Positions 1-16,052 of a stretch of DNA of 16,052 nt are shown in pieces (within the stretch, counting starts at the first letter, position 1; every line of letters begins with the position of its first letter). This DNA comes from a virus. Its lineage: Duplodnaviria; Heunggongvirae; Uroviricota; Caudoviricetes. Made by a program: the position numbers and the translations under genes. Location: IMG/VR virus record IMGVR_UViG_3300045988_092011; one strand, given 5' to 3'. Under the pieces are notes generated by a model that did not search any database, was not told where the DNA came from, and worked only from the letters and a program-made list of their open reading frames with translations.

Positions 1-19
1 AAGAAGGATTTTTGGCCTC

Positions 20-1102
20 TCATAGTCCAATACGGCGTAATGCGTTTCCCTCTGGGCAGGAGCTTAGCCAATCCAAGTTCTTGGGAACAAGGTCAGGGAT
101 TTCACGTAATGCAAGTGCTGCGCCAACAGCGAGAGATTCGAATCTAACTCGAGGTGTAGATTTTGCAGTAATAGTTTTCTTGAATCCTGCTGGGAAATAG
201 TTATCAACAAAAGATAGAACATTAGCAAACTCTTGTTTCATTGAGTTTTGTTTAGTTTCGTCTATATCTCGATTTTCTAACATATAGTCATTTAGAAAAT
301 CCCGTACGGAATGATCAAAGTTCTTGTACTTATCTAAGTAGGCAAAGAATCTTAATGTAAATTCTAACCGTTCATCTCGTTTTTCTTTAGTCTGAGATAA
401 AGGTGCTAATTCTTTAAATTTAGGTATTGTTGAGCATGGCTTAATAACCTGTGTATATAAATTTGTTGAACCAAGTTCTGATCCTTTACGGACTTCCATA
501 TCTTTCAATATATCGCTGCCAGAGTTAATACGTTCAAAAAGATCTCTACGGGTTTCTTCATTGCATTTAGAACTCAATTCTATAACGCGGACAGGAATTC
601 TCATGAAACGACGTTGACGTGATAATGGTAAATCTTGGAATTTGAAACCATTAAGGGCGTCTAAAGATTTCAGATCTTGTAAAACTAATTCATTTTGGAT
701 AAAAGCGTGTATAGTCCTAACTCGCTGTGAGCCATCAACAATCTCAATTCGCCCATCTAAATCGGGATCTTCGGAGAGAACATCTGCTGTAAATATATAT
801 GGTATAGGAAAACCCAAAATCAAAGACTCTATCAATCTTGATTGTCTTTTTTCACTCCAAACAAAATCCCTTTGATAATCAGGAACAAAGAGTTCGTTAG
901 TATCATCCTCTAATCCGCTATGATACTTATTAACTAATAACTCAACGGTAAATTCTTTGGTCTCAAAATCCACATCCTTTTGCTCAGCACGAATTTGCTC
1001 TTCAGCGTTTTGCTTTATCACCTCTAGCTGAGCAAGCAACTCTGCTCTTTTCTTGGCATTATCTTCATTTTCTAGTTGAGATTTTAAATCAATAATGTCC
1101 AT
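20..1102 (-). CDS. DUF262 / ParB-like nuclease-domain protein (GmrS-like N-terminal domain family); candidate anti-phage defence protein
   Basis: 366-aa ORF; start trimmed from TTG at 1120 to ATG at 1102 (MDIIDLK...), which is preceded by AGGGAG with a 6-nt spacer. Motifs PDYQRDFVW...LILGFPIPYIF...IVDGSQRVRTI match the DUF262 hallmark (QR..W and DGQQR-like). About 25-33% GC in the body versus 55-60% in the flanking phage genes. Sits in the old/tin slot beside cos. Confidence 0.75.
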   Translation of the reverse strand: MDIIDLKSQLENEDNAKKRAELLAQLEVIKQNAEEQIRAEQKDVDFETKEFTVELLVNKYHSGLEDDTNELFVPDYQRDFVWSEKRQSRLIESLILGFPIPYIFTADVLSEDPDLDGRIEIVDGSQRVRTIHAFIQNELVLQDLKSLDALNGFKFQDLPLSRQRRFMRIPVRVIELSSKCNEETRRDLFERINSGSDILKDMEVRKGSELGSTNLYTQVIKPCSTIPKFKELAPLSQTKEKRDERLEFTLRFFAYLDKYKNFDHSVRDFLNDYMLENRDIDETKQNSMKQEFANVLSFVDNYFPAGFKKTITAKSTPRVRFESLAVGAALALREIPDLVPKNLDWLSSCPEGNALRRIGL

Positions 1103-1287
1103 GTCTAGCTCCCTTAACAAGTGTTAAAAATTGAAGCGGATAGCATACCGCATAGATCATGAAAAATGCCATCATGTGCATGGATTTGCATGCGTCAGAA
1201 GTCGCTTTTATTGTTAGTTATCACTAGCGATGGTGTGCTCTTGGAGTGTTCATGCAACTGCATTAAAAACGCCCCATGAAGCGGGCG

Positions 1288-1306
1288 GGCGAGGCGGGGA
1301 AAGCAC
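1288..1306 (+). other. cos: cos site: P2-type 19-nt cohesive-end sequence GGCGAGGCGGGGAAAGCAC
   Basis: The exact 19-mer I recall as the P2 cohesive end is present in a GC-rich non-coding region, at the expected position beyond the 3' end of Q. Confidence 0.7.
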
Positions 1307-1448
1307 TGCGCGCTGGCGGTGGTGCTGATTTTATTTTTTCAGCGTCTCAGCGCGTCGTAATGGCGTTTAGATTGTGCGCCGAGGCGTTGGTGTGTCTGCG
1401 GGCTGTTTTGTGCGGTGGTGAGCGTGTGAGGGCATGATGACGGGGTGT

Positions 1449-1470
1449 AAAAAAGCCGCCCGCAGGCGGC
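1449..1470 (-). terminator. Rho-independent terminator of the P-Q late operon
   Basis: On the minus strand: 6-bp GC stem (1455-1460 with 1465-1470), 4-nt loop, then TTTTTT (plus-strand A-tract 1449-1454). The hairpin starts 5 nt after the Q stop codon. Confidence 0.6.
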
Positions 1471-1475
1471 GATGT

Positions 1476-2510
1476 TCAGCCGTTGTCAGTGTCCAGTGAG
1501 TAGTTTTTAAAGCGGATGACCTCCTGGCCGAGCCAGCCGTTTATTTCCCGAATCCTGTCCTGTAACGGGATTAGCTCATTGCGGACAAAGACCTTTGCCA
1601 CTTTCTCAATATCGCCCAGTGACCCGACGTTCTCCGGCTTGCCGCCCATCAACTGAAAGGGGATGCGGTGCGCGTCCAGCAGGTCAGCGGCGCTGGCTTT
1701 TTTGATATTAAAAAAATCGTCCTTCGTCGCCACTTCACTGAGGGGGATAATTTTAATGCCGTCGGCTTTCCCCTGCGGGGCATAGAGAAACAGATTTTTA
1801 AAGTTATTGCGGCCTTTCGACTTAACCATGTTTTCGCGAAGCATTTCGATATCGTTGCGATCCTGCACGGCATCGGTGACGTACATGATGTATCCGGCAT
1901 GTGCGCCGTTTTCGTAATACTTGCGGCGGAACAGCGTGGCCGACTCATTCAGCCAGGCAGAGTTAAGGGCGCTGAGATATTCCGGCAGGCCGTACAGCTC
2001 CTGATTGATATCCGGCTCCAGCAGGTGAAACACGGAGCCGGGCGCGAAGGCTGTCGGCTCGTTGAAGGACGGCACCCACCAGTAAACATCCTCCTCCATG
2101 CCACGGCGGGTATATTTTGCCGGCGAGGTTTCCAGCCTGATAACCTTACCGGTGGTGCTGTAACGCTTTTCCAGAAACGCATTACCGAACACCAGAAAAT
2201 CCAGCACAAAGCGGCTGAAATCCTGTTGAGAAAGCCACGGATGCGGGATAAATGTCGAGGCCAGAATATTGCGTTTAACGTAAATCGGTGAGCTGTGATG
2301 CACGGCAGCACGCAGGCTTTTCGCCAGACCGGTAAAGCTGACCGGTGGCTCATACCATCTGCCGTTACTGATGCATTCGACGTAATCCAGAATGTCACGG
2401 CGGTCGAGTACCGGCACCGGCTCACCAAAGGTGAATGCCTCCATTTTCGGGGCGCTGGCGGTCATTTTTTTTGCCGCAGGTTGCGGTGTTTTCCCTTTTT
2501 TCTTGCTCAT
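1476..2510 (-). CDS. Q: portal protein (P2 gpQ-like)
   Basis: 344 aa, N-terminus MSKKKGKTPQPAAKK; length and position match P2 Q. Its ATG overlaps the stop of P (ATGA). Confidence 0.93.
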   Translation of the reverse strand: MSKKKGKTPQPAAKKMTASAPKMEAFTFGEPVPVLDRRDILDYVECISNGRWYEPPVSFTGLAKSLRAAVHHSSPIYVKRNILASTFIPHPWLSQQDFSRFVLDFLVFGNAFLEKRYSTTGKVIRLETSPAKYTRRGMEEDVYWWVPSFNEPTAFAPGSVFHLLEPDINQELYGLPEYLSALNSAWLNESATLFRRKYYENGAHAGYIMYVTDAVQDRNDIEMLRENMVKSKGRNNFKNLFLYAPQGKADGIKIIPLSEVATKDDFFNIKKASAADLLDAHRIPFQLMGGKPENVGSLGDIEKVAKVFVRNELIPLQDRIREINGWLGQEVIRFKNYSLDTDNG

Positions 2511-4282
2511 CAGTAAAACTCCAGAATGGTGGATGTCAGCGGGGTGCTGATACCGGCGGTGAGTGGCTCATTTAACAGGGCGTGCATGGTCGCCCAGGCG
2601 AGGTCGGCGTGGCTGGCTTCCTCGCTGCGGCTGGCCTCATAGGTGGCACTGCGTCCGCTGCTGGTCATGGTCTTGCGGATAGCCATAAACGAGCTGGTGA
2701 TGTCGGTGGCGCTGACGTCATATTCCAGACAGCCACGGCGGATAACGTCTTTTGCCTTGAGCACCATTGCGGTTTTCATTTCCGGTGTGTAGCGGATATC
2801 GCGCGCGGCGGGATAGAACGAGCGCACGAGCTGGAACACGCCGACACCGAGGCCGGTGGCATCAATACCGATGTATTCGACGTTGTATTTTTCGGTGAGT
2901 TTGCGGATGGATTCCGCCTGAGTGGCAAAGTCCATGCCTTTCCACTGGTGACGCTCAAGTATTCTGAATTTGCCACCGGCCACCACCGGCGGTGCCAGCA
3001 CCACGCATCCGGCGCTGTCGCCACGGTGTGACGGGTCGTAACCAATCCATACCGGGCGGGAGCCGAACGGATTCGCGGCAAACGGCGCATAGTCTTCCCA
3101 TTCTTCCAGCGTGTCGACCATGCAGCGTTGCAGCTCCTCGAACGGGAATACCGACGCCTTGTCGTCAACAAATTCACACATGAACAGGTTTTTAAAATCG
3201 TCGGCGCTGTTTTCGCGTTTGAGCTGTTCAATGTCGAACAGCGTGCAGCCGCCTTTCAGGGCGTCCTCAATGGTGACAATCTGCCGCCACTGACCGTCCG
3301 CACAGAGAAGCCCACCGGAAAGGGCGTTATGACTGACGTCGATTTCCACGCGTTCGGCGGCGCTGGCGCGTCCCCGGTTGAACAGTTCACCGGACCAGAA
3401 CGGGTAGGCGTCGTGCGCCAGCGTGGACGGGGTGGAGAAATAGGTCGAGCGCAGGTGACTCTGTGAGGCCATACCTGATGCCACCTTACGCAGTACCTGA
3501 AAATTCGGGATCCAGAAAATCTCGTCGACGTACAGGTCGCCGTTATGGCTCTGCGCGGTGTTGGAGTTGGTGCCGAGAAAAATCAGTTTTGCGCCGTTAT
3601 TGCCCAGGACAATCGGGTCACCGGTCAGGTCAACGTCAACCAGCCGGGCAAAGGCGATGATGTATTCGCGGAACACATACGCCTGCGTTTTACTGGCCGA
3701 CAGAAAAATCTGGTTATGGCCGGTTTTCAGGGCGCGCAGCAGCGCTTCGCGGGAAAAATAAAACGTTGCGCCAATCTGGCGGGATTTCAGGATATCGCGG
3801 ATGCGGTGCTCAAGCCCGGCGCGATACCAGTGCAACTGATAGTCGAAAGACTGCTCAAAGAAAATCTGCTCCAGCTTTTCGATGGCCTCGTCACTGAAAA
3901 AATTCTTTTTCGGTTTGCGCCGCCCGTCTTTGTTGCGGTTAGCAACGTTCGGATTAAGGTCTGCCTCGTTGCCGGTCTGACTGTAACGGTTGACCCGTGC
4001 CAGTCGTTCAATCTGGCGTCCGAGCAGGTCAATTTCCTTGAAGTCACCGCCGGTTTTCTGCGGTTTGATGATGAGCTGGGTCAGTCGCGCTTCCAGACTC
4101 ATTTCGACACGGCTGATGGGGGCAACGCTGTCCCAGCCGTCGCGCTGTTTCCAGCTCTGCACCGTCGGGCGTTTCATCTGCAACATGGCGGCAATCTGCG
4201 GCACGGAAAACCCCTGCCAGTACAGCAGCGCCGCCTGACGACGCGGGTCGTGTAAAAGAGTGGTGTCTGTGGTGATGGTCAT
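2510..4282 (-). CDS. P: terminase large subunit / ATPase (P2 gpP-like)
   Basis: ORF track gives 600 aa; trimmed to the second ATG (MTITTDTTLLHDP...), preceded by GAGG, giving 590 aa, which matches my recollection of P2 P. Divergent from O. Confidence 0.9.
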   Translation of the reverse strand: MTITTDTTLLHDPRRQAALLYWQGFSVPQIAAMLQMKRPTVQSWKQRDGWDSVAPISRVEMSLEARLTQLIIKPQKTGGDFKEIDLLGRQIERLARVNRYSQTGNEADLNPNVANRNKDGRRKPKKNFFSDEAIEKLEQIFFEQSFDYQLHWYRAGLEHRIRDILKSRQIGATFYFSREALLRALKTGHNQIFLSASKTQAYVFREYIIAFARLVDVDLTGDPIVLGNNGAKLIFLGTNSNTAQSHNGDLYVDEIFWIPNFQVLRKVASGMASQSHLRSTYFSTPSTLAHDAYPFWSGELFNRGRASAAERVEIDVSHNALSGGLLCADGQWRQIVTIEDALKGGCTLFDIEQLKRENSADDFKNLFMCEFVDDKASVFPFEELQRCMVDTLEEWEDYAPFAANPFGSRPVWIGYDPSHRGDSAGCVVLAPPVVAGGKFRILERHQWKGMDFATQAESIRKLTEKYNVEYIGIDATGLGVGVFQLVRSFYPAARDIRYTPEMKTAMVLKAKDVIRRGCLEYDVSATDITSSFMAIRKTMTSSGRSATYEASRSEEASHADLAWATMHALLNEPLTAGISTPLTSTILEFY

Positions 4283-4455
4283 GAATACCTCGCCGTGATG
4301 AATACACGGCAAGGCTACTGAGTCGTGCCCTGCGATTCGCTAAGGTGCTGTTGTGTCAGTGATAAGCCATCCGGGACTGATGGCGGAGGATGCGCATCGT
4401 CGGGAAACTGATGCCGACATGTGACTCCTCTAATCACTATTCAGGACTCCTGACA
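4283..4455. promoter_or_regulatory. divergent P/O intergenic region, expected site of the late promoters for the P-Q and O-onward operons
   Basis: A 173-bp non-coding gap between divergently oriented P and O. In P2 this region carries Ogr-activated late promoters, but I found no exact TGT-N12-ACA element, so the assignment is positional only. Confidence 0.4.
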
Positions 4456-5310
4456 ATGGCAAAAAAAGCATCAAAATTCTTTCGTATCGGCGTTGAGGGT
4501 GACACCTGTGACGGGCGTGTCATCAGTGCGCAGGATATTCAGGAAATGGCCGAAACCTTTGACCCGCGAGTCTATGGTTGCCGCATTAACCTGGAACATC
4601 TGCGCGGCATCCTGCCTGACGGTATTTTTAAGCGTTATGGCGATGTGGTCGAACTGAAGGCCGAAAAGATTGACGATGATTCGGCGCTGAAAGGCAAATG
4701 GGCGCTGTTTGCGAAAATCACCCCGACCGATGACCTTATCGCGATGAACAAGGCCGCGCAGAAGGTCTATACCTCAATGGAAATTCAGCCGAACTTTGCC
4801 AATACCGGCAAATGTTATCTGGTGGGTCTGGCCGTCACCGATGACCCGGCAAGCCTCGGCACGGAATACCTGGAATTCTGCCGCACGGCAAAACACAACC
4901 CCCTGAACCGCTTCAAATTAAGCCCTGAAAACCTGATTTCAGTGGCAACGCCTGTTGAGCTGGAATTTGAAGACCTGCCTGAAACCGTGTTCACCGCCCT
5001 GACCGAAAAGGTGAAATCCATTTTTGGCCGCAAACAGGCCAGCGATGACGCCCGTCTGAATGACGTGCATGAAGCGGTGACCGCTGTCGCTGAACATGTG
5101 CAGGAAAAACTGAGCGCCACTGAGCAGCGCCTCGCTGAGATGGAAACTGCCTTTTCCGCTCTTAAGCAGGAGGTGACTGACAGGGCGGATGAAACCAGCC
5201 AGGCATTCACCCGCCTGAAAAACAGTCTCGACAGCACCGAAAGCCTGACCCAGCAGCGCCGCAGCAAGGCCACCGGCGGTGGCGGTGACGCCCTGATGAC
5301 GAACTGCTGA
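4456..5310 (+). CDS. O: capsid scaffolding protein (P2 gpO-like)
   Basis: ORF trimmed to ATG at 4456 (MAKKASKFFRIGVEGDTCDG...), giving 284 aa; AGGA lies 9 nt upstream. Matches P2 O in length and sequence. Confidence 0.9.
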   Translation: MAKKASKFFRIGVEGDTCDGRVISAQDIQEMAETFDPRVYGCRINLEHLRGILPDGIFKRYGDVVELKAEKIDDDSALKGKWALFAKITPTDDLIAMNKAAQKVYTSMEIQPNFANTGKCYLVGLAVTDDPASLGTEYLEFCRTAKHNPLNRFKLSPENLISVATPVELEFEDLPETVFTALTEKVKSIFGRKQASDDARLNDVHEAVTAVAEHVQEKLSATEQRLAEMETAFSALKQEVTDRADETSQAFTRLKNSLDSTESLTQQRRSKATGGGGDALMTNC

Positions 5311-5368
5311 CCGGCGTCAGCCAGTCCGGGCAAACCTTCACGATTAACCCTTAATTTCAGGAAAAACT

Positions 5369-6442
5369 ATGCGCCAGGAAACCCGCTTTAAATTTAATGC
5401 CTACCTGTCCCGTGTTGCCGAACTGAACGGCATCGACGCCGGTGATGTGTCGAAAAAATTCACCGTTGAACCGTCGGTCACCCAGACCCTGATGAACACC
5501 ATGCAGGAGTCCTCTGATTTTCTGACCCGCATCAACATTGTGCCGGTCAGCGAAATGAAAGGGGAAAAAATTGGTATTGGTGTCACCGGCTCCATCGCCA
5601 GCACCACCGACACCGCCGGTGGCACCGAGCGTCAGCCGAAGGACTTCTCGAAGCTGGCGTCAAACAAGTACGAATGCGACCAGATTAACTTCGATTTTTA
5701 TATCCGCTACAAAACGCTTGACCTGTGGGCGCGTTATCAGGATTTCCAGCTCCGTGTCCGTAACGCCATTATCAAACGCCAGTCCCTTGATTTAATCATG
5801 GCCGGTTTTAACGGCGTGAGGCGTGCCGAAACCTCTGACCGCAGCAGTAATCCGATGCTACAGGATGTGGCGGTCGGCTGGCTGCAGAAATACCGCAATG
5901 AAGCACCGGCGCGCGTGATGAGCAAGGTCACTGACGAGGAAGGGCACACCACCTCTGAGGTTATCCGCGTGGGTAAGGGCGGTGATTATGCCAGCCTTGA
6001 TGCACTGGTGATGGATGCGACCAACAACCTGATTGAGCCGTGGTATCAGGAAGACCCTGACCTTGTGGTGATTGTGGGGCGTCAGCTACTGGCGGACAAG
6101 TATTTCCCCATCGTTAACAAAGAGCAGGACAACAGCGAAATGCTGGCCGCTGACGTCATCATCAGCCAGAAACGCATCGGTAACCTGCCGGCGGTACGCG
6201 TCCCGTACTTCCCGGCGGATGCGATGCTCATCACGAAGCTGGAAAACCTGTCCATCTACTACATGGATGACAGCCATCGCCGCGTGATTGTGGAAAACCC
6301 GAAACTCGACCGCGTGGAGAACTACGAGTCAATGAACATTGATTACGTGGTGGAAGACTACGCCGCCGGTTGTCTGGTGGAAAAAATTAAGGTCGGTGAT
6401 TTCTCCACACCGGCTAAAGCGACCGCAGAGCCGGGAGCGTAA
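5369..6442 (+). CDS. N: major capsid protein (P2 gpN-like)
   Basis: 357 aa; AGGA 6 nt upstream of the ATG; position after O and length match P2 N. Confidence 0.93.
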   Translation: MRQETRFKFNAYLSRVAELNGIDAGDVSKKFTVEPSVTQTLMNTMQESSDFLTRINIVPVSEMKGEKIGIGVTGSIASTTDTAGGTERQPKDFSKLASNKYECDQINFDFYIRYKTLDLWARYQDFQLRVRNAIIKRQSLDLIMAGFNGVRRAETSDRSSNPMLQDVAVGWLQKYRNEAPARVMSKVTDEEGHTTSEVIRVGKGGDYASLDALVMDATNNLIEPWYQEDPDLVVIVGRQLLADKYFPIVNKEQDNSEMLAADVIISQKRIGNLPAVRVPYFPADAMLITKLENLSIYYMDDSHRRVIVENPKLDRVENYESMNIDYVVEDYAAGCLVEKIKVGDFSTPAKATAEPGA

Positions 6443-6445
6443 CTG

Positions 6446-7189
6446 ATGACGAGTCCCGCACAGCGCCACATGATGCGGGTCTCGGCAGCGATGGCCGCGC
6501 AGCGGGAAGCCGCCCCGCTGCGACATGCAACTGTCTATGAGCAGATGCTGGTTAAGCTCGCCGCAGACCAGCGCACACTGAAAGCAATTTATTCAAAAGA
6601 GCTGAAGGCCGCGAAAAAACGCGAACTGCTGCCGTTCTGGTTGCCGTGGGTGAACGGCGTGCTGGAGCAGGGCAAAGGTGCACAGGATGACATTCTGATG
6701 ACGGTCATGCTGTGGCGTCTGGATACCGGCGATATTGCCGGTGCGCTGGAGATTGCCCGTTATGCCCTGAAGTACGGTCTGACCATGCCGGGGAAACACC
6801 GCCGCACCCCGCCGTACATGTTCACCGAGGAGGTGGCGCTTGCGGCCATGCGCGCTCACGCTGCCGGTGAGTCTGTGGATACCCGCCTGCTGACGGACAC
6901 CCTCGAACTGACCGCCACGGCTGACATGCCTGATGAAGTGCGCGCAAAGCTGCACAAAATCACCGGTCTGTTTCTGCGTGACGGTGGTGATGCCGCCGGT
7001 GCGCTGGCACACCTGCAACGTGCGACACAGCTCGACTGTCAGGCAGGCGTCAAAAAAGAGATTGAACGACTGGAGCGGGAGCTGAAACCGAAGCCGGAGC
7101 CGCAGCCAAAAGCGGCCACCCGCGCCCCGCGTAAGACCCGGAGCGTGACACCGGCAAAACGTGGACGCCCGAAAAAGAAAGCCAGTTAA
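6446..7189 (+). CDS. M: terminase small (endonuclease) subunit (P2 gpM-like)
   Basis: 247 aa, starts MTSPAQRHMMRV, GGGAG 8 nt upstream; begins 4 nt after the N stop. Confidence 0.9.
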   Translation: MTSPAQRHMMRVSAAMAAQREAAPLRHATVYEQMLVKLAADQRTLKAIYSKELKAAKKRELLPFWLPWVNGVLEQGKGAQDDILMTVMLWRLDTGDIAGALEIARYALKYGLTMPGKHRRTPPYMFTEEVALAAMRAHAAGESVDTRLLTDTLELTATADMPDEVRAKLHKITGLFLRDGGDAAGALAHLQRATQLDCQAGVKKEIERLERELKPKPEPQPKAATRAPRKTRSVTPAKRGRPKKKAS

Positions 7190-7288
7190 CAACCGAATGC
7201 GCCCCGCGCCAGGGCGGCACGCCGGTCAGTGAGGGTGAATCACCTGACACTGCACCGGCGTCCACCGCCCGACTTTTCAGAGGTAGTC

Positions 7289-7798
7289 ATGATGACGCTG
7301 ATTATTCCGCGAAAGGAGGCTCCCGTGTCCGGTGAGGGTACGGTGGTCATCCCGCAACCGGCAGGCGACGAGCCGGTGATTAAAAACACGTTCTTTTTTC
7401 CCGATATCGACCCGAAGCGCGTCCGGGAACGTATGCGCCTTGAGCAGACCGTCGCCCCCGCCCGTCTGCGTGAGGCCATCAAGTCAGGCATGGCTGAAAC
7501 AAATGCGGAGCTGTACGAGTACCGCGAACAGAAAATTGCCGCCGGTTTTACGCGTCTGGCGGACGTTCCGGCGGACGACATCGACGGTGAAAGCATCAAA
7601 GTTTTTTACTACGAGCGCGCTGTGTGTGCGATGGCGACCGCGTCGCTTTATGAGCGTTACCGCGGCGTGGATGCCAGTGCCAAGGGCGACAAGAAGGCCG
7701 ACAGCATTGACAGCACCATTGATGAGCTGTGGCGGGATATGCGCTGGGCGGTGGCGCGCATCCAGGACAAGCCGCGCTGCATCGTGAGTCAAATCTGA
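7289..7798 (+). CDS. L: head completion/stabilisation protein (P2 gpL-like)
   Basis: ORF track starts at GTG 7229; trimmed to ATG 7289 (MMTLIIPRKEAP...), with GAGG 8 nt upstream, giving 169 aa as in P2 L. Confidence 0.88.
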   Translation: MMTLIIPRKEAPVSGEGTVVIPQPAGDEPVIKNTFFFPDIDPKRVRERMRLEQTVAPARLREAIKSGMAETNAELYEYREQKIAAGFTRLADVPADDIDGESIKVFYYERAVCAMATASLYERYRGVDASAKGDKKADSIDSTIDELWRDMRWAVARIQDKPRCIVSQI

Positions 7799-8001
7799 TG
7801 AAGACCTTTGCGCTACAGGGCGACACGCTCGACGCCATTTGTGTCCGGTATTACGGGCGCACTGAGGGCGTGGTTGAGACCGTGCTCGCCGCAAATCCGG
7901 GACTGGCTGAACTGGGTGCGGTGCTGCCACACGGCACCGCCGTCGAACTGCCCGACGTTCAGACCGCGCCCGTGGCTGAAACTGTCAATCTGTGGGAGTA
8001 A
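7798..8001 (+). CDS. X: tail protein X (P2 gpX-like)
   Basis: 67-aa product MKTFALQGDTLDAICVRYYGRTEG...; its ATG overlaps the L stop (TGATG). Falls below the ORF-track length cutoff as a stand-alone ORF, so it was recovered from inside the 7729..8001 ORF. Confidence 0.85.
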   Translation: MKTFALQGDTLDAICVRYYGRTEGVVETVLAANPGLAELGAVLPHGTAVELPDVQTAPVAETVNLWE

Positions 8002-8004
8002 CGC

Positions 8005-8286
8005 ATGACAGCAGAAGAAAAAAGCGTCCTGTCGCTTTTCATGATTGGGGTGCTGATTGTTGTCGGCAAGGTGCTTGCCGGTGGTGAACCCATCACCCCG
8101 CGTCTGTTTATCGGGCGCATGTTGCTTGGTGGTTTTGTCTCGATGGTTGCCGGTGTTGTTCTGGTGCAGTTTCCTGACCTGTCACTGCCTGCGGTGTGCG
8201 GCATTGGCTCCATGCTGGGTATCGCCGGTTATCAGGTGATTGAGATTGCCATTCAGCGCCGCTTTAAGGGCAGGGGGAAACCGTAA
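8005..8286 (+). CDS. Y: holin (P2 gpY-like)
   Basis: 93 aa with hydrophobic membrane-spanning segments and a charged C-terminus; GGGAG upstream; first gene of the lysis cassette. Confidence 0.9.
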   Translation: MTAEEKSVLSLFMIGVLIVVGKVLAGGEPITPRLFIGRMLLGGFVSMVAGVVLVQFPDLSLPAVCGIGSMLGIAGYQVIEIAIQRRFKGRGKP

Positions 8287-8783
8287 TGCCGGTAATTAAC
8301 ACACATCAGAATATCGCCGCCTTTCTCGACATGCTGGCCGTGTCCGAAGGGACGGCGAATCATCCGCTGACGAAAAACCGGGGCTATGACGTGATAGTCA
8401 CCGGACTGGACGGGAAGCCGGAAATTTTCACCGACTACAGTGACCACCCGTTCGCGTATGGCCGACCGGCGAAGGTGTTTAACCGTCGCGGTGAAAAATC
8501 CACGGCCTCCGGTCGCTATCAGCAGCTTTACCTGTTCTGGCCGCATTACCGCAAACAGCTTGCCCTGCCGGATTTCAGTCCGTTGTCACAGGACAGACTC
8601 GCCATTCAGTTGATCCGCGAACGCGGTGCACTGGATGACATCCGGGAGGGACGCATTGAGCGCGCCATTTCACGCTGTCGCAATATCTGGGCGTCCCTGC
8701 CGGGTGCCGGTTACGGTCAGCGTGAGCATTCACTGGAAAAACTGGTCACCGTCTGGCGTACCGCTGGCGGCGTACCGGCTTAA
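8286..8783 (+). CDS. K: endolysin / lysozyme (P2 gpK-like)
   Basis: 165 aa; its ATG overlaps the Y stop (TAATG); position and length match P2 K. Confidence 0.92.
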   Translation: MPVINTHQNIAAFLDMLAVSEGTANHPLTKNRGYDVIVTGLDGKPEIFTDYSDHPFAYGRPAKVFNRRGEKSTASGRYQQLYLFWPHYRKQLALPDFSPLSQDRLAIQLIRERGALDDIREGRIERAISRCRNIWASLPGAGYGQREHSLEKLVTVWRTAGGVPA

Positions 8784-8797
8784 ACGGAGTAAACACC

Positions 8798-9223
8798 ATG
8801 AAGAAATTATCCCTTTCACTGATGCTGAACGTGTCGCTGGCGCTGATGCTGGCACTGTCCCTGATTTACCCGCAGAGCGTGGCCGTCAGTTTTGTCGCTG
8901 CCTGGGCGATTCTGGTGACGGTTATCTGTGTGGTTGCCGGTGGTGTCGGCGTGTATGCCACTGAGTATGTGCTGGAACGCTACGGGCGGGAGCTGCCGCC
9001 GGAATCGCTGGCCGTGAAGATTGTCACGTCGCTGTTTTTGCAGCCGGTGCCGTGGCGCAGACGGGCGGCGGCTCTGGTAGTGGTGGTGGCGACGTTTATC
9101 TCGCTGGTCGCTGCCGGGTGGATTTTTACCGCGCTGATTTATCTTGTGGTGTCGCTGTTTTTCCGGCTGATACGTAAAGCCTGTCGTCAGCGTCTTGAGG
9201 GGCGGGAACTATGTCAAAGCTGA
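8798..9223 (+). CDS. lysA: lysis regulatory membrane protein LysA
   Basis: 141 aa, strongly hydrophobic with several predicted transmembrane segments; ACGGAG 8 nt upstream; matches P2 lysA in position and length. Confidence 0.8.
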   Translation: MKKLSLSLMLNVSLALMLALSLIYPQSVAVSFVAAWAILVTVICVVAGGVGVYATEYVLERYGRELPPESLAVKIVTSLFLQPVPWRRRAAALVVVVATFISLVAAGWIFTALIYLVVSLFFRLIRKACRQRLEGRELCQS

Positions 9224-9636
9224 TGATTGTGCTGGTCGTGTTGCTATCGCTGGCGGTGGCCGGTCTGTTTCTGGCGAAGCATGAAAACGCCAGGCTGCGC
9301 GTCTCGCTGGACAGGGCGAACAATGTCGCCAGCGGGCAGCAGACGACCATCACCATGCTGAAAAATCAGCTTCATGTTGCGCTCACCAGGGCAGACAAAA
9401 ACGAGCTGGCGCAGGTGGCACTGCGTCAGGAACTGGAGAACGCCGCGAAGCGTGAAGCACAGCGCGAGAAAACCATCACGAGGTTACTTAATGAAAACGA
9501 AGATTTTCGCCGCTGGTACGGTGCTGACCTGCCTGATGCTGTGCGCCGGTTGCACCAGCGCCCCGCCTGCACCGACGCCAGTGATTGTCGCCAACGCCTG
9601 CCCGAAAGTGAGTCTTTGCCCGATGCCGGGCAGTGA
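9211..9636 (+). CDS. lysB: LysB, Rz-like inner-membrane spanin
   Basis: 141 aa, N-terminal membrane anchor (MSKLMIVLVVLLSLAVAGLF) followed by a charged helical periplasmic region; overlaps the lysA 3' end. Confidence 0.8.
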   Translation: MSKLMIVLVVLLSLAVAGLFLAKHENARLRVSLDRANNVASGQQTTITMLKNQLHVALTRADKNELAQVALRQELENAAKREAQREKTITRLLNENEDFRRWYGADLPDAVRRLHQRPACTDASDCRQRLPESESLPDAGQ

Positions 9637-9781
9637 CCCGGAGACGAACGGCGATTTAAGTGCCGATATCCGGCAGCTTGAGAACGCGCTGGCACGCTGT
9701 GCCAGCCAGGTAAAAATGATTAAACACTGTCAGGACGAAAACGATGCTCAAACCCGACAGCCTGCGCAGGGCGCTGACTGA
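9491..9781 (+). CDS. lysC: LysC, Rz1-like outer-membrane lipoprotein spanin, embedded in the +1 frame of lysB
   Basis: 96-aa product MKTKIFAAGTVLTCLMLCAGCTSAPPAPTP with a signal peptide, lipobox-like Cys and a Pro-rich region; GAGG 8 nt upstream; starts inside lysB and runs past its stop into R. Confidence 0.75.
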   Translation: MKTKIFAAGTVLTCLMLCAGCTSAPPAPTPVIVANACPKVSLCPMPGSDPETNGDLSADIRQLENALARCASQVKMIKHCQDENDAQTRQPAQGAD

Positions 9782-10211
9782 TGCCGTCACGGTGCTGAAA
9801 ACCAGTCCAGAGATGCTTCGGATATTCGTGGATAACGGGAGTATTGCCTCCACGCTGGCGACGTCGCTGTCGTTCGAAAAGCGTTACACGCTCAATGTGA
9901 TTGTGACCGACTTTACCGGTGATTTTGACCTGCTCATCGTGCCGGTGCTGGCGTGGCTGCGGGAAAATCAGCCCGACATCATGACCACCGACGAAGGTCA
10001 GAAAAAAGGTTTCACGTTTTATGCAGACATCAACAATGACAGCAGCTTTGATATCAGCATCAGCCTGATGCTGACCGAGCGCACGCTGGTCAGTGAGGTT
10101 GACGGCGCGCTGCATGTGAAGAATATCCCGGAACCTTCGCCGCCGGAGCCGGTTACCCGCCCGATGGAGCTGTATATCAATGGCGAACTGGTGAGCAAGT
10201 GGGATGAATGA
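9744..10211 (+). CDS. R: tail completion protein (P2 gpR-like)
   Basis: 155 aa; position and length match P2 R; overlaps the S start. Confidence 0.88.
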   Translation: MLKPDSLRRALTDAVTVLKTSPEMLRIFVDNGSIASTLATSLSFEKRYTLNVIVTDFTGDFDLLIVPVLAWLRENQPDIMTTDEGQKKGFTFYADINNDSSFDISISLMLTERTLVSEVDGALHVKNIPEPSPPEPVTRPMELYINGELVSKWDE

Positions 10212-10656
10212 GTTTAAGCGTTTTGAAGACCGGCTGACCGGACTTATTGAATCGCTGTCACCGTCAGGGCGTCGGCGACTGAGCGCCGAACTGGCGAAAC
10301 GTCTGCGGCAGAGTCAGCAGCGCCGGGTGATGGCACAGAAAGCCCCGGACGGCACACCCTACGCACCACGCCAGCAGCAGAGCGCCAGAAAAAAGACCGG
10401 TCGCGTTAAGCGAAAAATGTTTGCGAAACTTATCACCAGTCGTTTTTTGCATATCCGCGCCAGCCCTGAACAGGCATCAATGGAGTTTTACGGCGGGAAG
10501 TCACCGAAAATAGCCAGTGTGCATCAGTTCGGTCTGTCGGAAGAAACCCGGAAAGACGGTAAGAAAATTGATTATCCGGCGCGTCCTCTGCTCGGCTTTA
10601 CCGGTGAGGATGTGCAGATGATTGAAGAGATTATCCTGGCTCACCTCGACCGTTAG
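10204..10656 (+). CDS. S: tail completion protein (P2 gpS-like)
   Basis: 150 aa; position and length match P2 S. Confidence 0.88.
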   Translation: MNEFKRFEDRLTGLIESLSPSGRRRLSAELAKRLRQSQQRRVMAQKAPDGTPYAPRQQQSARKKTGRVKRKMFAKLITSRFLHIRASPEQASMEFYGGKSPKIASVHQFGLSEETRKDGKKIDYPARPLLGFTGEDVQMIEEIILAHLDR

Positions 10657-10722
10657 TTGTGCCATTCCCGACACCTCATCGTTACATTGCCGCCGGTATG
10701 ACCCGGCGGCATCCTTCCCGTT
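10657..10722 (+). promoter_or_regulatory. S-V intergenic region with a GC-rich hairpin; expected location of the late promoter for the V operon
   Basis: 66-bp gap containing a perfect 8-bp inverted repeat GCCGCCGG / CCGGCGGC (10689-10696 and 10703-10710, 6-nt loop) with no T-tract after it. P2 has a late promoter ahead of V, but no exact Ogr-site consensus was found. Confidence 0.35.
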
Positions 10723-11358
10723 ATGAACACTCTCGCAAATATCCAGGAACTCGCGCGCGCACTGCGCAACATGATCCGCACCGGCCTTGTCGTCGAAACC
10801 AACCTTAAAGCCGGTCGCTGCCGTGTGCAGACCGGCGGCATGTGCACCGACTGGCTTCAGTGGCTGACCTGTCGTGCCGGGCGTTCGCGCACATGGTGGG
10901 CACCTTCCGTGGGGGAGCAGGTGCTGATTCTGGCCGTGGGCGGTGAACTTGACACGGCGTTTGTTCTGCCGGGGATTTATTCCGGCGATAACCCCGCGCC
11001 GTCTGCGTCGGCGGATGCCCTGCATATCCGTTTCCCTGACGGGGCGGTGATTGAGTATGAACCCGAAACCAGTGCACTCACGGTAAGCGGAATTAAAACG
11101 GCCAGCGTGACGGCTTCTGATTCTGTTACTGCCACGGTGCCGGTGGTCATGGTGAAAGCATCAACCCGCATCACCCTGGACACACCGGAGGTGGTCTGCA
11201 CCAACAGGCTGATTACCGGCACGCTGGAAGTGCGGAAGGGCGGGACGATGCGCGGCAACATTGAACACACCGGCGGTGAACTCTCATCAAACGGTAAGGT
11301 ACTGCATACCCATAAACACCCCGGCGACAGCGGCGGCACAACCGGGAGCCCTCTATGA
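10723..11358 (+). CDS. V: baseplate spike / assembly protein (P2 gpV-like)
   Basis: 211 aa; position and length match P2 V. Confidence 0.9.
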   Translation: MNTLANIQELARALRNMIRTGLVVETNLKAGRCRVQTGGMCTDWLQWLTCRAGRSRTWWAPSVGEQVLILAVGGELDTAFVLPGIYSGDNPAPSASADALHIRFPDGAVIEYEPETSALTVSGIKTASVTASDSVTATVPVVMVKASTRITLDTPEVVCTNRLITGTLEVRKGGTMRGNIEHTGGELSSNGKVLHTHKHPGDSGGTTGSPL

Positions 11359-11702
11359 CAGCGCGTTATCTCGGAATGAATCGCAGTGATGGCCTGACTG
11401 TCACTGACCTTGAGCATATCAGCCAGAGTATCGGCGATATCCTGCGCACACCGGTCGGCTCACGGGTGATGCGTCGTGATTACGGCTCGTTGCTGGCGTC
11501 AATGATTGACCAGCCGCAGACCCCGGCGCTTGAGTTGCAGATTAAGGTCGCCTGTTACATGGCCGTGCTGAAATGGGAACCCCGCGTCACCCTGTCATCC
11601 GTCACCACGGCGCGCAGTTTTGACGGGCGAATGACGGTCACGTTAACCGGTCAGCACAACGACACCGGCCAGCCACTTTCGTTAACCATCCCTGTGAGTT
11701 GA
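11355..11702 (+). CDS. W: baseplate wedge protein (P2 gpW-like)
   Basis: 115 aa; its ATG overlaps the V stop (ATGA). Confidence 0.9.
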   Translation: MTARYLGMNRSDGLTVTDLEHISQSIGDILRTPVGSRVMRRDYGSLLASMIDQPQTPALELQIKVACYMAVLKWEPRVTLSSVTTARSFDGRMTVTLTGQHNDTGQPLSLTIPVS

Positions 11703-11706
11703 AACC

Positions 11707-12615
11707 ATGCCGATTATCGACCTGAACCAGCTACCCGCACCGGATGTGGTCGAGGAGCTGGACTTTGAAACCATTCTTGCCGAACGCAAGGCGACACTGA
11801 TTTCCCTTTACCCGGAAGACCAGCAGGAGGCGGTCGCCCGTACCCTGACGCTGGAATCTGAGCCTCTCGTCAAACTGCTGGAGGAAAATGCTTATCGTGA
11901 GCTTATCTGGCGTCAGCGTGTGAATGAGGCTGCACGGGCGGTGATGCTGGCCTGTGCCGCCGGTAATGACCTTGATGTGATTGGTGCCAATTACAACACC
12001 ACACGCCTGATTATCACCCCGGCAGATGATTCGACCCTCCCGCCGACACCGGCCGTGATGGAATCTGACACCGATTATCGTCTGCGTATTCAGCAGGCGT
12101 TTGAAGGTTTAAGCGTCGCCGGGTCGGTGGGGGCCTATCAGTATCATGGTCGAAGTGCCGACGGGCGTGTCGCAGATATCTCTGTCACCAGTCCTTCTCC
12201 GGCCTGCGTCACCATCTCTGTGCTGTCACGTGAAAATAACGGTGTGGCATCCGAAGACCTGCTGGCGGTGGTGCGCAACGCCCTTAATGGTGAGGACGTC
12301 AGACCGGTGGCCGACCGCGTGACCGTGCAGTCTGCCGCCATCGTTGAATACCAGATAAACGCCACGCTTTACCTTTACCCTGGCCCCGAAAGCGAACCCA
12401 TCCGCGCTGCTGCCGTGAAAAAACTGGAAGCGTACATCACGGCACAACACCGGCTGGGGCGTGACATCCGTCTGTCTGCCATTTATGCCGCTTTGCATGT
12501 GGAAGGCGTGCAGCGTGTCGAGCTGGCCGCACCACTGGCCGACATCGTGCTCAACAATACGCAGGCGTCTTTCTGTACCGAATACCGCGTCGTGACCGGA
12601 GGCTCGGATGAGTGA
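11707..12615 (+). CDS. J: baseplate protein (P2 gpJ-like)
   Basis: 302 aa; position and length match P2 J. Confidence 0.9.
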   Translation: MPIIDLNQLPAPDVVEELDFETILAERKATLISLYPEDQQEAVARTLTLESEPLVKLLEENAYRELIWRQRVNEAARAVMLACAAGNDLDVIGANYNTTRLIITPADDSTLPPTPAVMESDTDYRLRIQQAFEGLSVAGSVGAYQYHGRSADGRVADISVTSPSPACVTISVLSRENNGVASEDLLAVVRNALNGEDVRPVADRVTVQSAAIVEYQINATLYLYPGPESEPIRAAAVKKLEAYITAQHRLGRDIRLSAIYAALHVEGVQRVELAAPLADIVLNNTQASFCTEYRVVTGGSDE

Positions 12616-13138
12616 TTCGCGACTGCTGCCGACCGGCTCATCACCGCTTGAAGTTGCCGCCGCAAAAGCCTGTGCGGAAATTGAAAAGACACCGGTCAGG
12701 ATTCGTGAGCTGTGGAACCCGGACACCTGCCCGGCAAATCTGCTGCCGTGGCTGGCGTGGGCGTTTTCGGTCGACAGGTGGGATGAAAAGTGGCCGGAAG
12801 CGACAAAACGCGCCGTTATCCGCGATGCCTATTTCATCCACTGTCATAAAGGCACTATAGGTGCAATCCGGCGTGTGGTGGAGCCGCTGGGCTATCTCAT
12901 CAACGTGACGGAGTGGTGGGAAACCAGTGACCCGCCGGGCACCTTCCGGCTTGATATTGGTGTACTGGAAAGCGGCATCACAGAGGCAATGTATCAGGAA
13001 ATGGAACGGCTGATTGCTGATGCCAAACCTGCAAGCCGCCACCTTATTGGCCTGAACATTACCCGGGACATTCCCGGCTACTTGTTCGCCGGTGGTGTGG
13101 CTTATGACGGCGATGTAATTACGGTTTACCCAGGATAA
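12608..13138 (+). CDS. I: baseplate protein (P2 gpI-like)
   Basis: 176 aa; GGAGG upstream; overlaps the J 3' end by 8 nt. Confidence 0.9.
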   Translation: MSDSRLLPTGSSPLEVAAAKACAEIEKTPVRIRELWNPDTCPANLLPWLAWAFSVDRWDEKWPEATKRAVIRDAYFIHCHKGTIGAIRRVVEPLGYLINVTEWWETSDPPGTFRLDIGVLESGITEAMYQEMERLIADAKPASRHLIGLNITRDIPGYLFAGGVAYDGDVITVYPG

Positions 13139-13148
13139 GTGAGGAATA

Positions 13149-15398: not shown

Positions 15399-15401
15399 TT
15401 T

Positions 15402-15929
15402 ATGCAGCATTTAAAAAATATTACGGCGGGTAATCCAAAAACGGTTGAACAATATCAATTGACAAAGGACTTTGATGTTGTCTGGTTTTTTTCAGAAGAT
15501 GGTAAGAACTGGTACGAAGAACAAAAGTATTTTGCTGATGACACGATAAAAATAGCGTACGACAAAGATAATATTATCCGCTATGTGGAAAAGGATGTGA
15601 CAGCTATAAGACCGGATGGATTAAGTGTGGTTGAAGTGGCGGATATTACTGCTAACCGACGGGCGGACATTTCAGGGAACTGGATGTTTAAGGATGGCAA
15701 AGTGATTAAACGCATTTATACGGCAGAGGAATTGCAGCAGCAGGCAGAAAACCGGAAAGCCAGACTTCTTGCAGATGCTGAATCCGTGATTTTGCCGCTG
15801 GAGCGCGCTGTCAGGTTGAACATGGCAACAGAGGAGGAGCGCACACGGCTGGAGGCTTGGGAACGCTACAGCGTTGTGGTCAGTCGTGTGGATCCTGCAA
15901 ATCCTGAATGGCCGGAAATGCCGCAATAA
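15402..15929 (+). CDS. G: tail fibre assembly chaperone (P2 gpG-like, Tfa family)
   Basis: 175 aa immediately downstream of H; AT-rich 5' two-thirds and a more GC-rich 3' third; length matches P2 G. Confidence 0.88.
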
Positions 15930-15964
15930 GTTGTATGAACTCTGGTGTGAGCTTACATATCTAT

Positions 15965-16004
15965 GGCACAGAGTAAAGCCTAATCTGACAGTCCGCTCTG
16001 TGCC
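15965..16004. other. 9-bp inverted repeat (GGCACAGAG ... CTCTGTGCC) with a 22-nt spacer, downstream of G
   Basis: Perfect 9-bp arms at 15965-15973 and 15996-16004; no T-tract follows, so it is not a classic intrinsic terminator. Function unknown. Confidence 0.3.
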
Positions 16005-16052
16005 AGGAGCGGAAGTTGCCAAGAGAACTCTTGCAAAGGTATGATAACGTAG

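What the first reader, a model, noticed from the sequence alone, without database searches (positions are those of the whole stretch)
1..22. The DUF262 gene reads toward the left window edge; any partner gene(s) lie off-window
The gene is transcribed away from cos and its stop codon is at 20-22, leaving only 19 nt before the window ends. In known DUF262 systems the partner is usually a DUF1524/HNH nuclease (GmrS + GmrD as separate polypeptides) or Dnd/Ssp-type modification genes. A short protein lacking an obvious nuclease domain is therefore plausibly gene 1 of an operon that continues into the rest of the accessory slot, between here and the replication gene. The window alone cannot say whether this is a one-gene or multi-gene system.
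Basis: inference. Interest (0 to 1): 0.5.

Follow-up and report, generated by a model that had tools for sequence, protein, structure and literature searches.

The report
Truncated DUF262 gene; partners HEPN and methylase
The stop codon at the window's left edge is not the gene's real end: the first 59 bases are foreign (Bacteroidales) DNA, probably an assembly artefact, and in every relative the DUF262 gene runs on and sits in a three-gene phage-defence cassette with a HEPN nuclease and a cytosine methylase.

Summary
The reading frame and the in-frame TGA at 22-20 are really there, but the stop is not native. Window 60-16052 is essentially identical (2 SNPs in 13,712 compared bases) to a P2-like prophage of E. 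coli O169:H41 2014EL-1345-2. Window 1-59 matches nothing in 5,426 complete E. coli genomes. It is a 59/59 match to the inside of a polysaccharide-locus gene on a human-gut contig whose closest relatives are Bacteroidales. There is no microhomology at the 59/60 junction, so this is most likely a chimeric contig tip. The window protein is 348 native residues plus 12 foreign ones. The native protein is 380 aa with a conserved tail.

In the near-identical prophage the native stop is followed 1 nt later by a co-directional HEPN_MAE_28990 gene (226 aa, RNDLSH motif). After that come a bidirectional terminator, a convergent C5-cytosine methyltransferase, and gpA. The trio is present in 69 of 69 viral contigs with enough flank, down to 36% identity. 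It moves as one 2.95-kb block between P2-like and lambdoid prophages.

The partner type (HNH/DUF1524, Dnd/Ssp) and the gene end are wrong. The closest validated system is PD-T4-2. The ParB-HEPN-methylase operon was noted in 2013. Interest is low to moderate.

The parts
1..59 (+). Foreign 59-nt tip. It is identical to an internal piece of a 344-aa ORF in a polysaccharide-biosynthesis locus of an uncultured gut Bacteroidales-type organism. It is not part of the prophage.
   Evidence: 59/59 exact match to L003 5388-5446, in frame with ORF 4491-5525 (+). Neighbouring genes are GT1, epimerase and ATP-grasp. The closest genomes are Bacteroidales MAGs at 90% aa identity. No match in E. coli genomes, IMG/VR or GTDB representatives.
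20..22 (-). Accidental in-frame TGA inside the foreign tip. It is not the native stop of the DUF262 gene.
   Evidence: The native stop in L001 is 100 nt further on (L001 8901-8903).
60..1102 (-). Native part of the DUF262 (ParB-like) gene. The first 348 residues match the native 380-aa protein; the last of these codons spans the junction (61-59) and is synonymous by chance.
   Evidence: 100% DNA identity to NZ_CP024223.1 from position 60 on. The 348-aa prefix is identical to WP_000351260.1/P0001. PADLOC NsnA 4.8e-54 and PD-T4-2_A 6.5e-34.
485..916 (-). GmrSD_N / DUF262 ParB-fold NTPase domain (aa 63-206). It includes the DGSQR motif at aa 123-127 (nt 722-736).
   Evidence: Pfam PF03235. D123, G124, Q126 and R127 are invariant in 34 homologues. 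The AF2 model resembles ParB/Noc/KorB, BrxU and SspE.
1109..1115 (-). Shine-Dalgarno AAGGGAG, 6 nt upstream of the ATG at 1102.
   Evidence: Read directly from the sequence.
1288..1306 (+). P2-type cos cohesive-end sequence GGCGAGGCGGGGAAAGCAC, 186 nt upstream of the DUF262 start.
   Evidence: The sequence is read. Its identity with P2 cos is from memory and was not tested.
1476..2510 (-). Portal gene (P2 Q), the right-hand boundary of the accessory slot.
   Evidence: Pfam Phage_portal. Annotated as portal protein in L001.

Best explanation
Shown:
- The window is a P2-like prophage whose left 59 nt are unrelated DNA from a gut Bacteroidales-type organism, joined bluntly at 59/60 to the 3' part of the DUF262 gene.
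- The apparent stop at 20-22 is an accidental antisense stop in that foreign piece.
- The native gene encodes 380 aa and is the first gene of a conserved cassette. The order is DUF262/ParB-like protein, then a HEPN_MAE_28990 protein starting 1-4 nt later, then a terminator, then a C5-cytosine DNA methyltransferase (convergent). The cassette fills the slot between cos/Q and gpA.

Inferred:
- The foreign tip is an assembly or read chimera at a contig end.

Mechanism (inferred, about 0.35-0.4 on its own):
- The methyltransferase marks resident DNA with m5C at a specific motif.
- The DUF262 protein has a ParB-fold NTPase domain plus a helical DNA-binding domain, like Menshen NsnA. It acts as an NTP-dependent DNA sensor that tells marked from unmarked DNA.
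- On sensing foreign DNA it activates its partner, the Rx4H HEPN nuclease, probably an RNase.
- That nuclease stops phage development, by abortive infection or growth arrest.
For: Foreign tip:
- Identity to NZ_CP024223.1 starts exactly at position 60, with zero shared bases beyond the junction.
- Window 1-59 is absent from E. coli, IMG/VR and GTDB representatives.
- It equals L003 5388-5446 exactly.
- The same gene position in four other Bacteroidales-type genomes and an Alistipes MAG aligns at 41-49 of 59 nt, so the piece is native there.
- No protein with the window's tail is on record.
- The lost 32-aa tail carries 9 invariant residues.

Cassette:
- L001 and L002 annotation.
- Pfam HEPN_MAE_28990 2.8e-29 and DNA_methylase 4.4e-58.
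- The junction reads GAGGATTAACATG, with stop and start 1 nt apart, and the HEPN protein has an RNDLSH motif.
- A bidirectional hairpin lies between HEPN and Dcm.
- The same trio occurs in gut metagenome contigs, a Klebsiella lambdoid prophage, Methylomonas, Pseudomaricurvus, Photobacterium, Peduovirus P24B2 and Moraxella phages.
- A single 2,953-nt block at 76.8% identity runs from the DUF262 ATG to about 63 nt upstream of the Dcm ATG in L001 versus L012.
- All 69 IMG/VR loci with enough flank have HEPN directly downstream and a Dcm adjacent. Three of them have the gene order rearranged but the linkage kept.

Literature:
- PD-T4-2 is DUF262+HEPN and protects against T4 (PMC9519451).
- The NsnA sensor model (PMC12065111).
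Against: - The chimera is inferred from sequence alone. No reads or source assembly were available, so a real rearrangement cannot be excluded.
- The mechanism is untested.
- PD-T4-2 works, and is tolerated in K-12, without a cloned methylase.
- In Peduovirus P24B2 the methylase reads as two overlapping ORFs while DUF262 and HEPN are intact. If that is real, it argues against a strictly protective methylase.
- Characterised DUF262 sensors (GmrSD, BrxU) recognise modified rather than unmodified DNA (PMC10952713).
- PADLOC has no model matching the HEPN partner.
Confidence: 0.8

Rival explanations
1. The 59/60 junction is a real genomic event in the source organism. Foreign DNA was inserted or recombined into the prophage, truncating the DUF262 gene and removing or displacing HEPN and Dcm.
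For: The junction exists in the sequence given. Nothing available here can show that reads do not support it.
Against: The 59-mer is an internal, in-frame piece of an ordinary glycan-locus ORF, not the end of a mobile element. It comes from a different phylum. It is absent from 5,426 E. coli genomes. The junction has no microhomology. The rest of the window differs from a sequenced isolate at only 2 of the 13,712 positions compared. Only 59 nt sit at the extreme end of the sequence, which is typical of a chimeric tip.
Confidence: 0.08
2. The window carries a natural short allele of a stand-alone, single-gene DUF262 defence protein that really ends at 20-22.
For: There is an intact ORF with a good Shine-Dalgarno sequence and a stop codon.
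Against: No protein in a 5.8-billion-sequence collection shares the tail. All 120 listed relatives are 378-395 aa. The replaced tail is conserved. 69 of 69 relatives have HEPN directly downstream. DNA identity to the full-length allele ends abruptly at position 60.
Confidence: 0.02
3. Mechanistic rival: the DUF262-HEPN pair is a type IV-like sensor of hypermodified phage DNA, as suspected for PD-T4-2 and GmrSD. The linked methylase does not protect self from it. It might license the sensor in the way phosphorothioate licenses SspE, or it might serve the phage as anti-restriction.
For: PD-T4-2 protects against T4, and the T4-selected systems of that screen generally also protected against T2 and T6. 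It needs no cloned methylase. Characterised DUF262 domains sense modified DNA. The P24B2 methylase appears split while its partners are intact.
Against: Linkage to a C5 methylase is 69 of 69 across 36-100% identity, survives a change of gene order, and the three genes transfer as one block. That is hard to explain if the methylase were unrelated cargo. A sensor of modified cytosine next to an m5C methylase risks self-targeting.
Confidence: 0.25
4. The locus is a Menshen (NsnABC) system whose NsnB and NsnC genes lie off-window.
For: The best PADLOC hit of the DUF262 protein is NsnA, full length (4.8e-54 for the window protein, 2e-54 for the native one).
Against: In the near-identical prophage and in all relatives the downstream gene is a HEPN protein, not an ABC ATPase, and there is no NsnC.
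Confidence: 0.02

Closest known systems
PD-T4-2 (Vassallo et al. 2022, E. coli ECOR65)
   Same: It is a two-gene DUF262 + HEPN operon and a validated anti-phage system. The DUF262 protein is homologous over almost its full length (PADLOC PD-T4-2_A 5e-35, profile 55-355 of 363). The partner also scores above threshold on Pfam HEPN_RiboL-PSP, the family reported for PD-T4-2.
   Different: The HEPN partner here is longer: 226 aa, against roughly 150 aa implied by the 1,540-nt two-ORF span. It belongs primarily to HEPN_MAE_28990 and no PADLOC model matched it. A C5 methyltransferase is invariably linked here, whereas none was in the PD-T4-2 clone.
MAE_28990 HEPN - ParB nuclease - DNA methylase operons (Anantharaman et al. 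2013, comparative genomics)
   Same: It has exactly the three components found in the relatives: HEPN_MAE_28990, a ParB-like (DUF262) protein and a DNA methylase.
   Different: It was only a table entry from genome context. There was no experiment, no name and no mechanism. In the window itself only the truncated ParB/DUF262 gene is present.
Menshen NsnA (Millman 2022; NAR 2025 analysis)
   Same: The sensor protein has the same architecture, a ParB-DUF262 domain plus a helical C-terminal domain, and NsnA is its best PADLOC match.
   Different: There is no NsnB ABC ATPase and no NsnC effector. The effector here is a HEPN protein, and a methylase is linked.
GmrSD / BrxU / SspE type IV-like enzymes
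   Same: They share the DUF262 N-terminal NTPase domain with a DGxQR motif, and there is weak fold similarity to BrxU and SspE.
   Different: There is no DUF1524/HNH domain in cis or in the neighbouring gene. The protein is much shorter (380 aa against 560-770 aa).
P2 defence hotspot between gpA and cos/Q (old, tin; Rousset 2022, Vassallo 2022)
   Same: The genomic slot is the same: gpA - cargo - cos - Q.
   Different: The cargo is different. DUF262 is not mentioned in the main text of Rousset 2022.

Membership tests
GmrSD-family type IV restriction enzymes | N-terminal DUF262 (GmrSD_N) domain with a DGQQR-type NTP-binding motif | tested here: met
   PF03235 at 4.2e-26. The motif is DGSQR, with D123, G124, Q126 and R127 invariant.
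GmrSD-family type IV restriction enzymes | DUF1524 / His-Me (HNH) nuclease domain, fused or encoded by the adjacent gene | tested here: not met
   There is no such Pfam hit in the window protein, the native 380-aa protein or the downstream gene of relatives, which is HEPN.
PD-T4-2 | PD-T4-2_A-like DUF262 protein | tested here: met
   PADLOC PDLC04027 at 6.5e-34 (window protein) and 5e-35 (native protein).
PD-T4-2 | Adjacent downstream HEPN protein of the PD-T4-2_B type | tested here: inconclusive
   A HEPN gene lies directly downstream in 69 of 69 relatives. It passes Pfam HEPN_RiboL-PSP (36 bits against a cut-off of 28.4). No PADLOC model matched it at E<=0.01. The gene is absent from the window itself.
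PD-T4-2 | Protection against T4 / T-even phages | not testable with these tools
   This needs plaque assays.
Menshen (NsnABC) | NsnA-like ParB-DUF262 + ParBDB protein | tested here: met
   PADLOC NsnA at 4.8e-54 for the window protein (profile 23-304 of 385) and 2e-54 for the native protein (profile 23-376 of 385).
Menshen (NsnABC) | NsnB ABC ATPase followed by an NsnC effector immediately downstream | tested here: not met
   The downstream genes in the near-identical prophage and in relatives are HEPN and a convergent Dcm.
ParB - HEPN_MAE_28990 - DNA methylase operon class (Anantharaman 2013) | ParB-like (DUF262) gene | tested here: met
ParB - HEPN_MAE_28990 - DNA methylase operon class (Anantharaman 2013) | MAE_28990-family HEPN gene with an Rx4-6H motif in the same operon | tested here: met
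   Met in the near-identical prophage and in relatives, not in the window. PF18737 at 2.8e-29, RNDLSH at aa 174, start 1 nt after the DUF262 stop.
ParB - HEPN_MAE_28990 - DNA methylase operon class (Anantharaman 2013) | Linked DNA methylase gene | tested here: met
   Met in relatives, not in the window. PF00145 at 4.4e-58. It is adjacent in 69 of 69 loci.
Classical restriction-modification logic (methylase protects self from the effector) | Loss of the methylase is toxic, and the effector acts on unmethylated DNA | not testable with these tools
   There is only indirect evidence. Strict linkage favours it. The split methylase in P24B2 and the methylase-free PD-T4-2 clone weigh against it.

The most novel reading that the evidence does not exclude
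The DUF262-HEPN-Dcm cassette, of which the window holds only a truncated first gene, would be a distinct and so far uncharacterised defence system. It would use restriction-modification-style m5C self-marking, but read the mark with a ParB-fold NTPase sensor and respond with a HEPN RNase rather than a DNA endonuclease. It spreads as a 3-kb unit between P2-like, lambdoid and other prophages.
Probability: 0.3. Interest if true: 0.6.

Novelty: new member of a known kind. Interest (0 to 1): 0.3.

Why it matters
For the scan, it matters because a gene end read from the last 59 nt of a window or contig was not biological. A 12-residue foreign tail and a false stop would have produced a wrong protein model and a wrong 'short, nuclease-less' description.

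A HEPN nuclease and a C5 methylase accompany this DUF262 family in every locus examined. The trio hops as a unit between unrelated prophage backbones. It is a clear and cheap experimental target, a 3-kb cassette available in a sequenced E. coli isolate. It could show how a ParB-type sensor couples DNA modification status to an RNase effector. That question is still open for PD-T4-2, Menshen and Dazbog.

Tried and rejected
- I tested whether window 1-59 is a shuffled copy of the native 59 nt. The base composition differs, so it is not.
- I tested whether it repeats elsewhere in the window or in the reference prophage. Only chance 10-12-mers turned up.
- I considered an IS or transposon end. It is absent from all complete E. 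coli genomes, and in its only source it is an internal in-frame piece of an ORF. Rejected.
- Exact-pattern scans of IMG/VR and GTDB representative genomes found nothing. Only the metagenome scan hit.
- An exact-protein look-up of the 360-aa window product found no record.
- Sequence search of the PDB gave nothing useful for the DUF262 or HEPN proteins: BrxU at E 0.4, and chance hits to polyhedrin.
- NCBIfam has no model for either protein.
- Searching the literature for PF18737 / HEPN_MAE_28990 found no paper.
- Promoter scans upstream of the DUF262 gene were no better than shuffled controls, so I name no promoter.
- My first automated count of 'HEPN downstream' missed 10 loci, because stop-to-stop ORFs began upstream of the match end. 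I corrected this.

Full report
**1. What the window shows**

The window is the late-gene half of a P2-like (Peduovirus) prophage. It carries portal (1476-2510, -), large terminase (2510-4312, -), scaffold, capsid and so on.

Left of the portal gene lie a P2-type cos sequence (1288-1306; its identity with P2 cos is from memory) and a low-GC gene on the minus strand. That gene is 30-38% GC against 50-60% for the backbone.

The ORF starts at ATG 1102, with AAGGGAG 6 nt upstream, and reaches an in-frame TGA at 22-20. This gives 360 aa. Pfam finds only GmrSD_N/DUF262 (aa 63-206, E 4e-26).

**2. The stop is not the gene's end**

A megablast of the window against 5,426 complete E. coli genomes finds E. 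coli O169:H41 strain 2014EL-1345-2 (NZ_CP024223.1) at about 100% identity. The match covers 60-16052, never 1-59. Only two substitutions (window 1740 and 13938) were seen in 13,712 compared positions.

Alignment shows that identity stops abruptly at position 60, with no shared base beyond the junction.

Window 1-59 has no match in any complete E. coli genome, even with sensitive blastn at E<=10. It has none in IMG/VR and none in 185,579 GTDB species representatives. It is not a shuffle of the native sequence and is not repeated elsewhere in the window.

One scan of metagenome contigs found a single hit: ENA contig UEQL01002448, from a human gut metagenome (L003). Window 1-59 equals L003 5388-5446 at 59 of 59 positions.

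In L003 the piece lies in frame inside a 344-aa plus-strand ORF. That ORF is flanked by a glycosyltransferase, an epimerase, an ATP-grasp enzyme and a nucleotidyltransferase, so this is a polysaccharide-biosynthesis locus. The closest genomes encoding that ORF are uncultured Bacteroidales MAGs (90% and 84% aa), an Alistipes MAG and a Porphyromonadaceae genome. The homologous position in those genomes aligns at 41-49 of 59 nt. The 59-mer is therefore native to that gene, not to E. coli.

The TGA at 22-20 is a stop that happens to occur when this foreign coding sequence is read antisense.

The window product is 348 native residues followed by CPEGNALRRIGL. The native protein (WP_000351260.1 = P0001) continues with EEFKRLTTSDGANSRVKVIERIEYVRDKLLED, for 380 aa in total.

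No protein with the window's tail is on record. All 120 best homologues are 378-395 aa and align only to the first 97% or so of the query. The lost tail carries nine invariant residues across 34 homologues of 59-100% identity.

**3. What the 59-nt tip most likely is**

Six observations bear on this:
- The junction is blunt, with no microhomology.
- The tip sits at the extreme end of the sequence.
- It comes from a different phylum that shares the human-gut habitat.
- It comes from the middle of an ordinary gene.
- It is absent from all E. coli genomes.
- The remaining 15,993 nt are nearly identical to an isolate genome.

Together these point to a chimeric read or contig tip in a metagenome-type assembly. 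This is an inference. I had no reads. A real rearrangement remains possible at roughly 5-10%.

**4. What lies beyond the native stop**

In NZ_CP024223.1 the order is as follows:

| Gene | L001 coordinates |
|---|---|
| gpA replication endonuclease | 4786-7080 + |
| DNA cytosine methyltransferase | 7167-8189 + |
| MAE_28990/MAE_18760-family HEPN-like nuclease | 8219-8899 - |
| DUF262 protein | 8901-10043 - |
| cos | not annotated |
| portal | 10417-11451 - |

An 88%-identical E. coli prophage has the same arrangement.

The DUF262 stop and the HEPN start are 1 nt apart (GAGGATTAACATG). A GAGGA sequence sits inside the last DUF262 codons, which suggests translational coupling. There is no terminator between the two genes.

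A 7-bp GC-rich hairpin that reads as a terminator on both strands (L001 8196-8212) sits in the 29-nt gap between the convergent HEPN and methylase genes.

The partner scores 2.8e-29 on Pfam HEPN_MAE_28990 and 8.5e-9 on HEPN_RiboL-PSP. It has an RNDLSH (Rx4H) motif at residue 174. The methylase is a standard C5 enzyme: PF00145 at 4e-58, TIGR00675, and M.HaeIII as the closest solved structure.

That condition is not met.

**5. The three genes are one module**

The same trio accompanies homologues in very different settings:
- gut metagenome contigs carrying the identical protein;
- a Klebsiella pneumoniae lambdoid prophage, between the replication genes and the Q-antiterminator region;
- chromosomal loci of Methylomonas, Pseudomaricurvus and Photobacterium;
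- Peduovirus P24B2 and nine Moraxella catarrhalis phages, at 43-45% identity.

E. coli L001 and Klebsiella L012 share one uninterrupted 2,953-nt block at 76.8% identity. The block begins at the DUF262 ATG and ends about 63 nt upstream of the methylase ATG. The flanks are unrelated.

I also fetched 79 IMG/VR loci with a profile of the family. I scored their ORFs with HMMs built from the HEPN and methylase proteins of seven and six loci respectively. Results for the 69 loci with at least 2 kb downstream:
- 69 have a HEPN ORF directly downstream.
- 66 have the convergent methylase after it.
- The 3 most divergent loci (36-39% identity) have the methylase immediately upstream on the same strand.
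- None lacks a methylase.

Linkage that survives a change in gene order and a change of phage backbone is strong evidence for a functional unit.

**6. How it probably works (inferred)**

An AlphaFold2 model of the native protein has mean pLDDT 85. It shows a long N-terminal helix (aa 3-40), a ParB/sulfiredoxin-type core and a helical C-terminal domain. Its best structural neighbours are nucleotide-bound ParB, Noc and KorB N-domains, BrxU and SspE, all at weak scores (E 2e-3 to 0.1).

D123, G124, Q126 and R127 of the DGSQR nucleotide-binding motif are invariant; S125 is nearly so.

The protein matches the Menshen sensor NsnA over its full length (2e-54). NsnA has been analysed as ParB-DUF262 plus a DNA-binding 'ParBDB' domain and is proposed to be the DNA sensor (PMC12065111).

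In GmrSD, BrxU and SspE the DUF262 NTPase reads DNA modification status and switches on a nuclease (PMC10952713). HEPN domains with Rx4-6H motifs are mostly RNases. [quoted passage not shown]

My preferred model has three steps:
- The methylase marks resident DNA.
- The DUF262 protein senses unmarked incoming DNA in an NTP-dependent way.
- It activates the HEPN RNase, which halts infection.

The main rival is a type IV-like sensor of hypermodified DNA, as suspected for PD-T4-2. In that model the methylase plays a licensing or anti-restriction role. Two points favour the rival. The PD-T4-2 clone has no methylase. The P24B2 methylase reads as two overlapping ORFs next to intact partners, although that could be a sequencing error. 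I put the preferred mechanism at about 0.35-0.4 and the rival at about 0.25.

**7. Comparison with what is known**

PD-T4-2 (DUF262+HEPN, from ECOR65) is validated both in a K-12 host and by deletion in ECOR65. It is the closest characterised system.
- Same: the DUF262 proteins are homologous (5e-35).
- Different: the HEPN partner here is longer. It is primarily of the MAE_28990 family. No PADLOC model matched it. It always comes with a methylase.

The locus is not GmrSD, because no DUF1524/HNH domain is present. It is not Menshen, because there is no NsnB or NsnC.

The slot is the well-known P2 hotspot between gpA and the portal gene (PMC9519451; PMC9122126). The three-gene association was recorded by comparative genomics in 2013 but has no name and no experiment. 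No paper in the searchable library mentions PF18737.

I therefore file it as a new member of a known kind. It is ordinary as a 'gene at the edge of a window'. It is moderately interesting as an uncharacterised, strictly linked, modification-associated DUF262-HEPN cassette.

**8. Verdict**

- Observation: partly confirmed. The ORF and stop exist, but the stop is non-native.
- Interpretation: partly supported. The locus is multi-gene, but with different partners. This sequence cannot be extended to them if the tip is chimeric.
- Interest: 0.3.

Noticed in passing
window 16052 (right edge); L026 3430-4773: The window ends 123 nt after the tail-fibre assembly gene (15402-15929). That is at the entry to the second P2 accessory hotspot (the Z/fun position). 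In the near-identical prophage that slot holds a 447-aa hypothetical protein (WP_000257039.1), which was not examined.
   Followed up: no
L027 1994-2404 and 2337-3041 (Peduovirus P24B2, NC_049387.1): The C5 methyltransferase of the homologous cassette reads as two overlapping ORFs (234 aa and 136 aa), while DUF262 and HEPN are intact. It is either a sequencing error or a methylase-defective cassette in a viable phage. The second reading would bear on whether the methylase protects self.
   Followed up: partly
L095, L098, L100 (IMG/VR contigs, 36-39% identity class): In the most divergent relatives the gene order is Dcm -> DUF262 -> HEPN, all on one strand, instead of DUF262 -> HEPN -> <- Dcm. 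Linkage is kept despite the rearrangement.
   Followed up: partly
L001 7104-10043 versus L012 6001-8949: The three-gene cassette is shared between an E. coli P2-like prophage and a Klebsiella pneumoniae lambdoid prophage. It is one 2,953-nt block at 76.8% identity, with boundaries at the DUF262 ATG and about 63 nt upstream of the methylase ATG.
   Followed up: yes
window 1740 and 13938: These are the only two differences from NZ_CP024223.1 in 13,712 compared bases: G vs A in the portal gene and C vs T in the tail-fibre gene. The source is a very close relative of that O169:H41 prophage, which sits between cpxP and fieF.
   Followed up: partly
L004-L011 (gut metagenome and Logan contigs carrying P0001): Several independent assemblies break 200-530 nt upstream of the DUF262 start, near cos. 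This is presumably because the flanking P2 backbone is shared by co-occurring strains. It shows that this region is assembly-fragile in metagenomes.
   Followed up: no
window 1270-1287 and 1455-1470 (minus strand): Two terminator-like hairpins lie downstream of the portal gene. One of them (CGCCCGCTTCATGGGGCG + T-run) abuts the cos sequence. The region has 6 terminator-like sites against 1.3 expected.
   Followed up: no
window 983-1096 (aa 3-40 of the DUF262 protein): The model predicts a long N-terminal helix, rich in charged residues, ahead of the ParB-fold core. It is a possible coiled-coil or dimerisation element. It lies upstream of the region matched by the PD-T4-2_A profile, which starts at aa 73.
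   Followed up: no
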